NCBI GenBank assembly: GCA_003693705.1
Contig: RBZT01000261.1
Span: 29,667-93,666, forward strand
DNA: 64,000 nt
DNA from: Polymyxa betae A26-41
Lineage: Eukaryota > Protista > Endomyxa: Phytomyxea
Reading direction: 5' to 3'
The notes below the pieces were generated by a model. That model did no database searches, was not told the origin of the DNA, and saw nothing but the letters and a program-made list of their open reading frames with translations. Shown here in pieces: positions 54,288 to 59,917 of this stretch. Within the stretch, counting starts at the first letter, position 1. Each line of letters starts with the position of its first letter. The translations under genes were made by a program, and so were the position numbers.

Positions 54288-56509
54288 TTATTTCGATGGA
54301 ACGGGCATGCCAGGCTCCGCTTCAGCTTCGTCAGATTCTTCAATTTTGAAGATATTGGCCGCTGGCGTTGAATGGTTGTGATATGGGACTCCAGCAGCTA
54401 TTCGGGTTAATAAAGGGGTTATAGTCTCGTAATCAGTCGCTTTAAAATAGGACTTTCTGAATGGCATATCCTGCTTGTTGATAAACTGAGCTACAGCTAA
54501 CACGTCGCCAGAACCGTTTTTTACAGGGACACAGAATACGCTTGTCGTCTTATACGAGTCTATTTTGTCTTGCGCTTTATCAAATCGATTGTCTTCATAA
54601 GCGTCCTCAACGATAATCGGAACCCCTTGATTGGCACAACAACCAATCAAGCCTTCTCCTAGCTTGAAAAACAGTGGATCCATTTCTTGACAGCCTGCAA
54701 GCAGCATGAGAAAAATATATCATGTTATTGCAATATCACTAACCCTCTCGAAGGACTGATTTTACTAATTTATTCTCTTGATCCACTATGTATAATGCTG
54801 TTCTATCTGCACCCAATTTATCTCTTGCTTCCAGAAGCGCATCTACTGCTAGTCTATATTGGATTTCAGACTGGGACAAATATTACGTAAAACGAAAGAC
54901 TGACGAGAATCCAATGTCAACTTTTCTCAAATCCTGAGTGATTGTAGAATTTGTACGTTTAGACGGAGAGGCCTGCCGGCTCGGATGAGACGAAACCGAT
55001 CGGCTTGAAAGAGCCTTATCATAAATAATAAGCAGTGAAAAGCAGCAGGTTCTTTGTTGAAGCTTACAGAGCTTTCTGCAGAGCTACCTCCGGCATCAGA
55101 TTCATAAGAGCGAAGATCGCCCAGCTGTCCGTTAACAAACCCAATGGGATTCTGCACTCTCATCATGGTTCGCTGAAAATCCTGCGATTGTGTAAGCACG
55201 AATGCAATCCGTTGGCAAGCGCTATGCTGACGTGTTCCTGAATGAGGTTTAATATCTCCTTCATTTCATTGCACTTCTTTTGTAATTCAGCAGCATGTTG
55301 CACAGTGAAGTAATCTCTCGTATATTGATGGTCCTGTTTGTTTCGAAATTCCAGAACAGCAGCGACACGTCCAGCCCGATCACGAACTGGACCAAGTAAT
55401 ACGCTTGTCGTTTTATAGCTGACCTCTGTATCATTTGTTTGATCAAATCTGGGATCAGCATACGCATCAGGAACTATCATAATCTCCCCGGTTGCCTGCC
55501 AACTATCAGAAACAGACCAGACGAACAATTTGATATTACGAACAGCTACAGTCCCGACTAAACCCTGATTCATTTGATATGATCTGGCATCTGCTTGTTG
55601 TCCCTCTATAACAACCGATTCTACAACGAAGTTTTTGTGATCGACGAGGTATAAAGCACCTCGATCAGCTCCGAACTGCTCACGAGTAGATTGTACGAAG
55701 CTTGCAAGACGTCGGAATCTGGCGTCCTATGAAACTTGAGCTGTATTTTAAAGAGTTTGCAGACGGTCACCTTGTCCATAAGAGCACTTGTGATGTACGA
55801 ATGAGAACGCCGATGTGCTTCGTTTGCTTTGGTGATTATCTCATTTTGAATATCTGTTGATAGTTTCCTCTGATGATATACTTTACTGTATTCATCGACA
55901 GCATTATTATTCTCGGATGCTTCTGATTCGAATAAGGCTTTGACGTCGTTTACTTCATCATTGAAATCGTCATCTTCTTCACCGAGGTCGAAAAGGCTTC
56001 GATCCCCAAATGCAATATTGCCGATTGCTGCTGCAAAGCTGTCTCTTGCTGCCTGACAGAAGACATTGAAATTATTGTAATTGGAACTGCAACATTACCG
56101 GCGAATCCGCTTCTAAATCGATAGTTCTCTCATCTGTTAGAATTGATAAACAGATCTCTGGAGATTCTTGAAACTTCTGTCGAAACAGCGGGCACTGGCT
56201 TGGATTGATCTTTTTGTCAACCACTAAACTAGTAATCGAAGAGACAGGTATATTGCCTTTGGCTTTAGCGACGTTATACCGTCCAGTAGGAAGTCGAACA
56301 TCTTTGATATCGCCCCAATACAACGTTAATAGCATTGGATCACACCAAAGAACTCGCCGCTTCCCTCTCCCATACTTGAATTTATTAAACTCCATTCCGG
56401 TGACAGCTATGGCTTTATAACGATGATAGAGGAGTGTGAGAGACTTATTTCGATGCTGCTTGCGACGAGCACCTTTGGCATGGCTCGGACTGGGGTTTGA
56501 TGCCTCCAT
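54288..56509 (-). CDS. PH domain plus tandem GAF domain protein
   Basis: PH: GMEFNKFKYG...LYW...LSILTDERTIDLEA. Two GAF domains: GADRGALYL...GLVG.VA...DAYADPRF...NK and FQADR...GLIG...DAYEDNRF...INK...F...D. Confidence 0.85.
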
Positions 56510-57155
56510 GGCAGGATCAAAAACAGGTCAATGACCACACACGATGACGGTCTGCATCATTCGGGTCGTACTATATCGTGCCCTCAGTTGCTTTATTTTG
56601 GCAAGAATTCTGCTGCCGAATTCTTGATCAAAGGCATCTGCTCTTATCATTGCTTTTCCTGTTACGTCAAAACTTAATTGTTTTTGAGTCCAGTTTAATC
56701 AAGCCTTTGATGACTTTGAATGTTAACCATGATACATTTTCGTCTCTAATGTAGAAATTATAATATACTTACTACAACTGTAGTAGCTGGGAATTTGGTG
56801 ACATGTTCAAGCTTCAGAAGAAGCTGCATAATGCGTTTCGGCTCCATAAGGTCACAACGTTTAGTTCACGGTAGACTTCTATTTAAACGCTTCATGCTGC
56901 AATTTGGCGGCTTTCTCCATTCGTTGGATTCAGGCCAACATAATCCTTATGCTGTTTGAGGTCGCCAAGGTCAAGCTGGCTGTTTGTGTAGACCCAATCA
57001 TGGTTGACAGCAATGCAAGCGGTTGTTATGAAAATGTAATGTTACGTAGGGGAAGATGGCAGCGTGCAGTTATGATAGAAAGTGCGATTGTGTTACCAAA
57101 GACTCCACCACCTCATTATTTTCAGAACTAACAACCGAGTCGTCATATCTGACGA

Positions 57156-58633
57156 ATGGCGTCTCATCCCAGGTCGCTGCTGACTGTTGCCATCCTGGCG
57201 ATATGTTTCTCGGTCGGCGCAAGCGACCTTCCGGGGGCACCAGAAACCCATCGAAAGCCAATGGAAACCCATCATTCCTGTTTCCCACCTTTCGACCAAG
57301 GATCGGTTTACTGGAAATATGGAGGCAACGCTGTCTCCACATCAAAATCTTTGAGGCTTACTCCTGCAACTCAAAGCATGCAAGGGTGGTTCTGGAATGA
57401 CTATCCACTAGAAAGTCCAAACTGGGAAGTCGAGGTATCACGATTTTATTTCGCCATTTCTATATTGAGGACTGCTTCTAGGCGGGTATCAAAGTATCGT
57501 CGAAACCGCATTTCGGTGGCGATGGATTCGCCTTCTGGGTTCTGTCATCGGAAATGGATCCTTCCTTTCAAACGTCTGATAACTCGTTAAACGGTCCGAT
57601 TTTTGGAATGCAAGAGAACTTTAAGGGACTTGGCGTCGTCTTCGATACTTACGACAATGACGGCCGACGGGATAATCCCTCTGTATTTGCCATCAAGAAT
57701 AATGGCGAAAAATTTATTTACAACAACGATAATGACTACGCCGACAACTACATTCGCGATACTCCAACCAATTCTCATTATAAATGCACAGCCGACTATC
57801 GAAACTTAGTATGGAAAATTTTGTAATCAGAAAATCATATTGCTCAAGCTTTGCAGGGGAAGCCAATGAAAGTCCTGTTCAGATACGTTGATAAAGTACT
57901 TCATGTCTATATCGATGATTCTGTAAAGGAACGAGGCTACAAATTCTGTTTCTCAGTAAATGTCGATCTCGACTACATCCCAGAAAAACATCTGGCGTTT
58001 ACCTCAATGACCGGTTAAAACTTTGTATTATGTTTCCAAATAATTTCATTGATCGATGTTTAGGTGAAGTCGCCGACATTGTCGATCTAACTTACGTGTC
58101 CACACATTATCTTGACGAACGTGATGCGAGCATCTCCGATAATTATTTGGAACACTCCGAAAGTATCGGTGGCTCCAAGTGGCGCTGGACGTACTGGTTC
58201 GTTGTGTTATGTTCTGGTGAGATTAATGCACGTGCTATAAATTCAATTAAAAAATTTCGCAGGAGTGTTCTTGTTGGGCTGGACTGTTCGGGATATAGTT
58301 CAGCTCAGCTCGTTCCAGAAAAGCCACGTCAACCCAGTGTATATTTGCAATGAGCTTAATTCGTGGATTTTGCCTCATTTCATTATCCATTTCTGCTTGT
58401 GCTTTTTGCTGGTTTTTGGCAGCTGGACCGCTTTGTTGTTGAATGCCCCGTTGGTCATCTACCGCATCATGCTGATCGTCCAGAAAAATTATGCATTGGA
58501 TCCAGCAATACTTTCTGGTGGCAGTCATAAAGGCCATGCTAAGCCCAAGTTATCATATACTACCCGCCTTTACATAACGGCTTTCCTCTACCTGATTCCT
58601 ACATGCTTCTACTTTTTTCAACTTTTTTACTGA
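57156..58633 (+). CDS. L-type (ERGIC-53/VIP36-like) lectin fused to a cornichon/Erv14 domain
   Basis: Signal peptide, HSCFPPF, LRLTP..QS.QG..WN, GGDGFAFW, FKGLGVVFDTYDN and MTG|EVAD. The C-terminus reads HVNPVYICNELN..ILP...W..LLLNAPL..Y....LDP. Confidence 0.88.
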
Positions 58634-58717
58634 AATAATTTCAATATTCTCAATACAATACTTTAAATAGTACCTCTCTTGTGATCTGTGATTATTTTCG
58701 AACTATCAATCACACCT

Positions 58718-59917
58718 TTATTTCCTCCGAAGATTTCGAATGAATCGCAATATCCTCTCGTAAAAAAGAAAAAGGAAAGCAGCATTCAAAACAGTTTGCC
58801 ACAGTTTTGCCCAAATACCGGAATAGAGTCCAATGAAACCTGCAAGCAAGCTTTAAAAGCTGACCAGTACCCGATTTTGGTCTATACCAACCTTCGATGG
58901 AGTATACTTTCACTAAAGCGTCCAGAACATTGGCATATTTCGGTTTCTTTTGATTGTTCACTTTGGGTGATGTAAAAACTTGCATTCGCGATTTAACCAA
59001 TTGATACGGATACTTTTGAACATTCAGTTAACCTCAAACCTATCAAATCACTGGACATACAGTTGCAAACGTCGCAGCAGCTTTGGCTACCGCACCCAAT
59101 AGAAAGTACGTAAAGTCAGACTAAATCAGACTTTAGTGACAATTCACTGCTTCGATGTACAAGTTACAACCAAATGGCTCTTCTTGGATCTTGCCATCAA
59201 TGAGACAAGCTGATCGTAAACCACAAACTGGATTGCAGGATTTGACACCAAAATCAACGAAGGGGCAATGCCTGAATACAGGCCAGCTAACCCTTCGGCC
59301 TTGAAGATTTGGTATAACGCTTCAATTAGACTTGAATACTTGGCTTTTGCAGCAACAGCCAATCGAGTCTGGATAACCTAGAAGCATCAATGAGAAAACG
59401 TGGCCGGATTCTAACAATGCAACCAACCCATATAGGATTCGTGATTAAAGCATTTGCTACACCGGCCAGTGCGGCGATGCATAGGTTTTTCCCAGGAGAT
59501 AACACACCATTAGAACTTACTGCCCGTTTCTTCAGGTACTCGTAAAAATAAAAGTACACTGTTGAGCCAATGAAAACCCCGGTCAAAGCAGAATTCATCC
59601 CCCTACTTAATCGCTGAAATAACAGAGGCGAACTTTAACGAACAAACCTGAAAAGGCTAGCGATTCCTTCTTCTTTAGGGATTACATAGAGCGCATGCAA
59701 GACGCCTTCCAGACGGCGACGTGAACCACTACCATCACTTTCGCTTTCGCTTTGATTCACTATTCAATTTTAGTCGGCGGAAGACCCCAACTCGATCGGT
59801 ATTACGCTGGACCTGCAACCGACATCGGACGTTCTCAAGTGGATACAGCAAGCCCATAGCCAAGACTGACGCCGCTCCTCCAGATAAGGCATGGGTCGTT
59901 GTATCAATATCTGACAT
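58718..59917 (-). CDS. Mitochondrial carrier family protein, peroxisomal PMP34/SLC25A17-like
   Basis: HALSGG...YPLENVRCRLQ, VYFYFYE, TNPIWV, LILVSNPAIQF..Y and YPYQLVKSRMQ. Confidence 0.88.

What the first reader, a model, noticed from the sequence alone, without database searches (positions are those of the whole stretch)
57156..58633. L-type lectin cargo receptor fused to cornichon/Erv14
Seen: the lectin exons splice in frame (TGT TCT G|gtgag...cgcag|GA GTG TTC) into a three-TM cornichon domain. The first cornichon helix replaces the usual lectin TM, and there is no KKFF/KKxx tail. Established: ERGIC-53/VIP36/Emp46-47 (luminal glycoprotein cargo) and cornichon/Erv14 (membrane cargo, binds Sec24) are separate COPII cargo receptors. 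Inference: a hybrid ER-export receptor in which cornichon supplies the coat link for a glycan-binding head.
Basis: partly seen in the sequence, partly recalled or inferred. Interest (0 to 1): 0.75.

Follow-up and report, generated by a model that had tools for sequence, protein, structure and literature searches.

The report
Rhizarian lectin–cornichon fused cargo receptor
This spliced gene joins two normally separate protein-export receptors, a sugar-binding head and a four-helix cornichon, into one protein found across the Rhizaria protists, and it likely carries glycoproteins out of the endoplasmic reticulum.

Summary
The fusion is real. Five exons (57156-58633, +) give a 428-aa protein: predicted signal peptide, ERGIC-53/VIP36-type lectin, short linker, whole cornichon. 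All four GT..AG introns are skipped in contigs of 5 runs from 2 studies. The lectin-cornichon boundary lies inside exon 4, not at an intron.

It is not a one-off: 89 of 194 proteins in hand carry both domains, and their lectins fall in one clade. Nine of the 10 named carriers are Rhizaria (Endomyxa, Cercozoa, Foraminifera, Aquavolonida).

The Erv14 Sec24 motif (IFRTL) is kept in 0 of 86 members, so the coat link is inferred only. The lectin's sugar and calcium residues are conserved and look VIP36-like.

Best reading: a likely ER-Golgi glycoprotein cargo receptor anchored and trafficked by its cornichon. It is also a candidate molecular marker of Rhizaria. My paper searches found no description. 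No earlier finding of this scan mentioned cornichon.

The parts
57156..57434 (+). Exon 1: residues 1-93, predicted signal peptide (hydrophobic stretch, about residues 5-23) and start of the L-type lectin domain
   Evidence: PF03388, E 2.4e-9; hydropathy only, no signal-peptide predictor
57435..57481 (+). Intron 1, 47 nt, GT..AG
   Evidence: skipped in X6, X7, X8, X1 and X9, X10
57482..57808 (+). Exon 2: residues 94-202, lectin core with D107, D148, Y150, N152, D153, N158, D178 (sugar and calcium site)
   Evidence: (PF03388, E 1.9e-13)
57809..57856 (+). Intron 2, 48 nt, GT..AG
   Evidence: skipped in X6-X10
57857..58013 (+). Exon 3: residues 203-254, lectin strands and second conserved cysteine (C233)
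58014..58063 (+). Intron 3, 50 nt, GT..AG
   Evidence: skipped in X6-X10 and X1
58064..58216 (+). Exon 4: residues 255-305; holds the fusion point: last lectin loop and strand (G255, E256), short linker, first half of cornichon helix 1 (from about 58177)
58217..58262 (+). Intron 4, 46 nt, GT..AG, inside cornichon helix 1
   Evidence: skipped in X6-X10; kept in one low-depth contig of relative X1
58263..58633 (+). Exon 5: residues 306-428 and stop; rest of cornichon helix 1 and helices 2-4
   Evidence: (PF03311, E 4.1e-16)
58481..58555 (+). Predicted cytosolic loop between helices 3 and 4 (about residues 379-403); residues 389-393 (58511-58525) align with the Erv14 Sec24 motif but do not keep it

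Best explanation
The gene encodes a 428-residue fusion of an ERGIC-53/VIP36-type lectin and a whole cornichon, shared across Rhizaria, that likely works as an ER-to-Golgi cargo receptor for glycoproteins. A predicted signal peptide would put the lectin in the ER lumen, where the conserved calcium and mannose residues likely bind high-mannose N-glycans. Tyr150 and Glu256 sit at VIP36's two specificity positions, which suggests a preference for glucose-trimmed glycans (inferred). The cornichon's four helices replace the stalk, single helix and KKFF tail of ERGIC-53. With both ends luminal, the loops after helices 1 and 3 would be the only cytosolic surfaces, so coat recruitment and retrieval would have to run through them or through a partner (inferred, untested). 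Shown: gene, splicing, domains, family, residue conservation. Predicted: fold and topology. Inferred: location, glycan preference, coat binding, cargo.
For: Splicing in 5 runs of 2 studies. Both Pfam domains are precomputed on 43 of 50 hits; 89 of 194 proteins carry both by my own family-built profiles. Lectin part of the Spongospora orthologue's model matches ERGIC-53 at Z 29.8 and VIP36 at Z 28.4; residues 295-433 match CNIH1 residues 2-139 at Z 12.5; ESM Atlas TM 0.81 to a cornichon cluster. Binding residues across 87 rows (n = rows spanning the column): D121-equivalent 59 of 66, N156 74 of 79, G251 84 of 87, both cysteines 85 of 85, Tyr at the F154/Y164 site 72 of 79, Gln/Glu/Asp at the G252/D261 site 72 of 87. 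PMC3912170 names D121, N156, F154, G251-L253, Y164 and D261 as the contacts (passages). Erv14 has four helices with luminal ends (PMC13640594). Lys+Arg counts fit that topology: 5.0 in the helix 3-4 loop against 0.3 in the helix 2-3 hairpin and 0.5 after helix 4. A hydrophobic N-terminal stretch is present in 40 of 42 near-full-length members. The I97-equivalent is L/V/I/F in 77 of 87, and CNIH1 uses a non-IFRTL sequence there that is needed for export (passages).
Against: [IL]FxxL in the helix 3-4 loop: 0 of 86. That loop is the least conserved region (0.30, against 0.57 for the lectin). Erv14 F18 is Phe in only 12 of 87; D33 is Asp in 13 of 87; Asp/Glu are not among the five commonest residues at D29 or E31. 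So the known coat and cargo surfaces of cornichon have drifted. The segment just before helix 1 also carries 1.9 Lys+Arg, so positive-inside support is weak for that boundary. The window protein has Asn at the H178 site, where 57 of 80 members have His. Pfam cornichon scores fall under the cut-off in several divergent members and one (P0065) has no hit. No localisation, binding or cargo data exist for any member.
Confidence: 0.62

Rival explanations
1. The cornichon has decayed to a membrane anchor. The protein is a resident ER or Golgi quality-control lectin (VIP36/VIPL-like retention or retrieval) and moves, if at all, through partners.
For: Loss of IFxxL, F18 and the acidic site 1; cornichon regions conserved at 0.30-0.46 against 0.57 for the lectin; VIP36-like specificity residues.
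Against: All four helices and the core residues persist (N45 81 of 87, P76 76 of 87, C41 60 of 87). A mere anchor needs one helix, yet inside the clade only 1 of 70 rows (P0118, long branch) looks like a true single-helix form.
Confidence: 0.18
2. It is a two-key receptor for membrane glycoproteins: the cornichon grips the cargo's membrane helices while the short-tethered lectin reads its glycan, so only folded, glucose-trimmed membrane proteins are exported.
For: The stretch from the lectin's last strand to early helix 1 is short and nearly constant (25-45 residues, mostly 27-30, in 87 rows), which holds the lectin near the membrane, unlike the long ERGIC-53 stalk (passages). Cornichons bind membrane cargo through helices 1 and 4.
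Against: The cargo-contact residues known in Erv14 and CNIH1 (F18, acidic site 1) are not kept. No cargo is known.
Confidence: 0.17
3. Two neighbouring genes wrongly joined (annotation or assembly artefact).
For: Contigs in this compact genome do chain neighbouring genes (X10, 5300 nt). Relative X1 keeps intron 4 in one contig. One Plasmodiophora model (P0005, 334 aa) stops inside helix 1.
Against: The domain boundary lies within exon 4; the intron-4 joint is seen in 5 runs; a second Plasmodiophora model with the identical lectin is full length (P0052, 447 aa); the fusion recurs in records of 10 named organisms.
Confidence: 0.02

Closest known systems
ERGIC-53/LMAN1 and yeast Emp46/Emp47 (L-type lectin ER-Golgi cargo receptors)
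   Same: Lectin fold (Z 29.8 to 1r1z; profile E 2e-42), mannose and calcium residues, disulfide pair, predicted luminal position.
   Different: No coiled-coil stalk, no single membrane helix, no KKFF tail (0 of 86); four-helix cornichon instead. Tyr and Glu/Gln at two sites where ERGIC-53 has Phe154 and Gly252.
VIP36/LMAN2 and VIPL
   Same: Short link to the membrane (VIP36 architecture recalled); Tyr at the Y164 site and a side chain at the D261 site; Z 28.4 to 2duo.
   Different: Gln or Glu rather than Asp at the D261 site; multi-pass anchor; no cytosolic tail.
Cornichon family: yeast Erv14, human CNIH1-4, plant CNIH
   Same: Whole four-helix domain (CNIH1 residues 2-139 aligned), PF03311 above cut-off, conserved Asn, Cys and Pro core, helix-3 kink proline.
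   Different: Carries a luminal lectin on its N-terminus; IFRTL/IFxxL, F18 and acidic site 1 are not kept.

Membership tests
L-type lectin cargo receptors (ERGIC-53/VIP36/Emp46-47) | Lectin_leg-like domain and fold | tested here: met
   PF03388 above cut-off; Z 29.8 and 28.4
L-type lectin cargo receptors (ERGIC-53/VIP36/Emp46-47) | Mannose- and calcium-binding residues | tested here: met
   D107, D148, Y150, N152, D153, N158, D178, G255 in the window protein; family counts; mapping. H178 site is Asn here. Numbers D152, D155, D157, N161, N162, H178, D181 are recalled labels.
L-type lectin cargo receptors (ERGIC-53/VIP36/Emp46-47) | Type I topology with one membrane helix and a cytosolic KKFF/dilysine tail | tested here: not met
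   Four helices; KKxx/KxKxx in 0 of 86
ERGIC-53/LMAN1 | Long coiled-coil stalk and tetramer | tested here: not met
   Only 25-45 residues from lectin end to early helix 1, so no stalk; oligomer state itself unresolved
L-type lectin cargo receptors (ERGIC-53/VIP36/Emp46-47) | Calcium-dependent binding of high-mannose glycans and ER-Golgi cycling | not testable with these tools
   needs a glycan array and localisation
Cornichon (Erv14/CNIH) | PF03311 domain with four-helix fold | tested here: met
   59.8 bits against 29.2; E 1.8e-8 to Erv14 32pz; Z 12.5, rmsd 2.5, 132 residues to CNIH1; TM 0.81
Cornichon (Erv14/CNIH) | IFRTL/IFxxL Sec24-binding motif in the helix 3-4 loop | tested here: not met
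   0 of 86; human CNIH1 also lacks the exact motif yet needs that stretch
Cornichon (Erv14/CNIH) | Cargo-contact residues (F18, acidic site 1) | tested here: not met
   F 12 of 87; D33 13 of 87; D29 and E31 not among the commonest residues
Cornichon (Erv14/CNIH) | Small stand-alone protein of about 140 aa | tested here: not met
   fused, 428 aa
Cornichon (Erv14/CNIH) | Binds Sec24 and is packaged into COPII vesicles | not testable with these tools
   no rhizarian Sec24 sequence was in hand to fold with it

The most novel reading that the evidence does not exclude
A single ancient fusion in the ancestor of Rhizaria, and only there, made a two-key ER-export receptor in which cornichon reads a cargo's membrane helices and the lectin reads its glycan. 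It would be a supergroup-defining molecular character, and a Rosetta-stone hint that cornichons and L-type lectin receptors cooperate as separate proteins in yeast, plants and animals.
Probability: 0.2. Interest if true: 0.85.

Novelty: new variant of a known kind. Interest (0 to 1): 0.62.

Why it matters
COPII cargo receptors are treated as separate classes: lectins for luminal glycans and cornichons for membrane helices. A conserved covalent hybrid shows the two can work as one chain. It gives a ready construct for asking how a cornichon without IFRTL reaches the coat. It also fits the recently solved four-helix topology with a luminal N-terminus, because only that topology can carry a luminal lectin on helix 1. 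If wider sampling holds, the fusion is a rare shared derived character for Rhizaria, a supergroup whose cell biology is little studied. It is a house-keeping trafficking gene, also present in free-living members, so it is not a parasite specialisation.

Tried and rejected
No whole genome is held for this window, so I could not test whether this organism also keeps a stand-alone cornichon or an ordinary ERGIC-53/VIP36. The 64-kb window has no second copy of either domain. A word-index search with a cornichon-weighted alignment (6 hits of 2167 candidates, 67-473 aa) found no stand-alone cornichon; it is too insensitive to count as absence.

No listed holder run is on record as RNA; X6-X10 are of unrecorded kind and are read as RNA because they skip introns on both strands. 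Raw-read runs X15 and X20 laid 0 reads: no test.

Homodimer prediction of P0001 residues 30-433 gave no answer (score 0.00).

P0131 (2185 aa) had a cornichon-looking tail but is a lectin joined to an Rrp5-like protein with no PF03311 hit: rejected as a second fusion. ESM Atlas feature hits were under 0.9, leads only; no Atlas cluster shown carried both families. Foldseek against PDB listed only lectins.

The Ploeotia vitrea (euglenid) record nests among cercozoan sequences in a 96-supported clade; I read it as contamination by prey or a co-isolated cell, but did not test that. Eight 'unfused' rows lie inside the clade: seven look truncated or mis-modelled, one (P0118) looks like a single-helix form. 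Rows dropped before counts: P0031 (apparent frame change) and P0051 (near copy); lectins covering under 170 profile positions (146 of 192 kept); one search used 44 hand-picked rows (24 fused, 20 unfused). Earlier scan notes held nothing on cornichon.

Full report
Gene structure. The region holds one plus-strand gene of five exons (57156-57434, 57482-57808, 57857-58013, 58064-58216, 58263-58633) and four GT..AG introns of 46-50 nt. Joined, they give 428 residues and one terminal stop. Keeping intron 4 shifts the frame and ends in a stop. Pfam finds Lectin_leg-like on exons 1 and 2 and Cornichon on exon 5, from profile position 13 of 122. In the full-length Plasmodiophora orthologue the match starts at position 3, so the start of the cornichon lies in exon 4, together with the last lectin strand. 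The fusion point is inside an exon.

Splicing. Of 8 runs laid, 5 (X6-X10; studies P3 and P4) each have a contig that skips all four introns. Their kind is not on record; they also skip the minus-strand introns of neighbours, so they behave as RNA assemblies. Such contigs chain adjacent genes (X10 is 5300 nt), so contig length alone does not prove one transcript; the intron-4 joint and the exon-4 boundary do. X1, a 95-99% relative, keeps intron 4 in one contig of depth 3.35. X15 and X20 laid no reads.

Family. Exon 5 searched against longer proteins gave 2 hits among 277 candidates, both with the two domains. The Spongospora subterranea protein P0001 then gave 50 hits among 3891 candidates, 43 with both Pfam domains precomputed. 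A profile search of 1.84 billion representatives (best 150 of 2595 listed) added more; 89 of the 194 proteins then in hand, the window protein included, carry both domains by profiles that I built from the family. The window protein is 66% identical to the Spongospora and Plasmodiophora proteins and groups with them at support 99, so the source is likely a phytomyxid. I looked up 20 fused proteins; 10 gave an organism: Spongospora, Plasmodiophora, Leptophrys, Lapot, Bigelowiella, Paulinella, Cercozoa sp. M6MM, Ammonia, Nonionella and Ploeotia. Nine are Rhizaria (lineages; Plasmodiophora, Ammonia and M6MM placed from recall or name). Ploeotia is a euglenid label that nests among cercozoans. The other fused proteins were unnamed or not looked up, so 'Rhizaria only' is a hypothesis. 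On lectin-domain trees the fused proteins lie on one side of a branch: 62 fused plus 8 unfused rows at support 99 among 146 rows (FastTree), and 24 of 24 fused against 20 unfused at SH-aLRT 100. The trees are midpoint-rooted and I ran no topology test, so one origin is the simplest reading, not a proven one.

Structure and topology. The AlphaFold2 model of P0001 (47 sequences, pLDDT 89.8, pTM 0.79) shows an N-terminal helix, a beta-sandwich, and helices at 297-330, 334-361, 365-383 and 409-432. I folded the orthologue, not the window protein. Residues 31-277 match ERGIC-53 (Z 29.8) and 295-433 match CNIH1 residues 2-139 (Z 12.5, rmsd 2.5). That Z is within the range the tool warns of for helical bundles, but sequence matches to Erv14 and CNIH1 and TM 0.81 in the Atlas agree. 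Erv14 has four helices with both termini in the lumen (PMC13640594; I read part 1 of 5 of the text, and passages). With a luminal lectin and four helices the C-terminus is luminal, which explains why no member ends in a dilysine motif (0 of 86).

Lectin site. PMC3912170 (passages) names D121, F154, N156 and G251-L253 as ERGIC-53 mannose contacts, and Y164 and D261 as the VIP36 residues behind its higher affinity and exclusion of glucosylated glycans. Mapped through and counted (87 rows), the family keeps D121 (59 of 66), N156 (74 of 79) and G251 (84 of 87). It has Tyr at the F154 site (72 of 79) and Gln, Glu or Asp at the G252 site (72 of 87; Gly in 11). The window protein has Y150 and E256. 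An active calcium-dependent mannose lectin with VIP36-like selectivity is likely; the selectivity is an inference from two positions.

Cornichon surfaces. Core residues persist (N45 81 of 87, P76 76 of 87, C41 60 of 87). The Erv14 Sec24 motif is gone (0 of 86), as are F18 (12 of 87) and most of acidic site 1. IFxxL is kept in yeast and plants (PMC10259512, passages). Human CNIH1 has a different sequence there whose mutation blocks export (10.1101/2025.10.27.684930, passages), and the first motif position stays hydrophobic in 77 of 87 fused proteins. So the coat link is neither shown nor excluded. ERGIC-53 relies on a KKFF tail and a long tetrameric stalk (PMC10944485, passages); the fusion has neither.

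Mechanism. Most likely the protein cycles between ER and Golgi, binds trimmed high-mannose glycans in the lumen, and uses its cornichon loops or a partner to enter coats (0.62). Rivals: a resident quality-control lectin on a decayed anchor (0.18); a two-key receptor for membrane glycoproteins (0.17); artefact (0.02).

What is known. Public records label the orthologues only 'L-type lectin-like domain-containing' or 'hypothetical', although both Pfam domains are precomputed, so the architecture is likely visible in InterPro (not searchable here). Paper searches: cornichon+lectin+Rhizaria 0; cornichon+Plasmodiophora 0; 'cornichon domain'+'lectin domain' 0. Looser searches (listings only, and only the top 10-20 of up to 83 papers) showed no title or abstract on this fusion. 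The library lacks most subscription journals, and I opened no supplementary files, where orthogroup or domain tables may list it.

Verdict. A real, conserved and apparently undescribed fusion of two known receptor classes: a new variant of a known kind. The domains are ordinary; the combination, its spread across a supergroup and the open question of how it reaches the coat make it worth 0.62.

Noticed in passing
window 58630-59914, minus strand: A convergent mitochondrial-carrier-family gene (PF00153; about 300 aa when spliced; resembles peroxisomal PMP34/ANT1 by recall). It has a 44-nt intron in its 3' untranslated part (58630-58673) that overlaps the stop codon of the lectin-cornichon gene, so the two transcripts overlap tail to tail.
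   Followed up: partly
window 54288-56527, minus strand: A divergent upstream gene with at least one GAF domain (PF01590, E 1.3e-9 at 55166-55726), a second GAF-like ORF at 54288-54719 (not scanned) and an N-terminal ORF at 56075-56527 with no Pfam hit.
   Followed up: partly
window 58217-58262 in run X1: The related strain in X1 keeps intron 4 in one contig and has it one base shorter (45 nt). By hand count, retention there would stay in frame and lengthen helix 1. One contig, depth 3.35.
   Followed up: no
protein P0118 (trees, tail): A 280-aa lectin that falls inside the fused clade on a long branch but ends in one membrane helix and a basic tail: a possible loss of the cornichon, or misplacement.
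   Followed up: partly
protein P0005 against P0052: Two Plasmodiophora brassicae gene models of the same locus: CEP01500.1 (334 aa) stops inside helix 1, SPQ93221.1 (447 aa) is complete. The shorter looks like a missed last intron.
   Followed up: yes
protein P0018: A Ploeotia vitrea (euglenid) EukProt record sits among cercozoan sequences, suggesting rhizarian contamination of that data set.
   Followed up: partly
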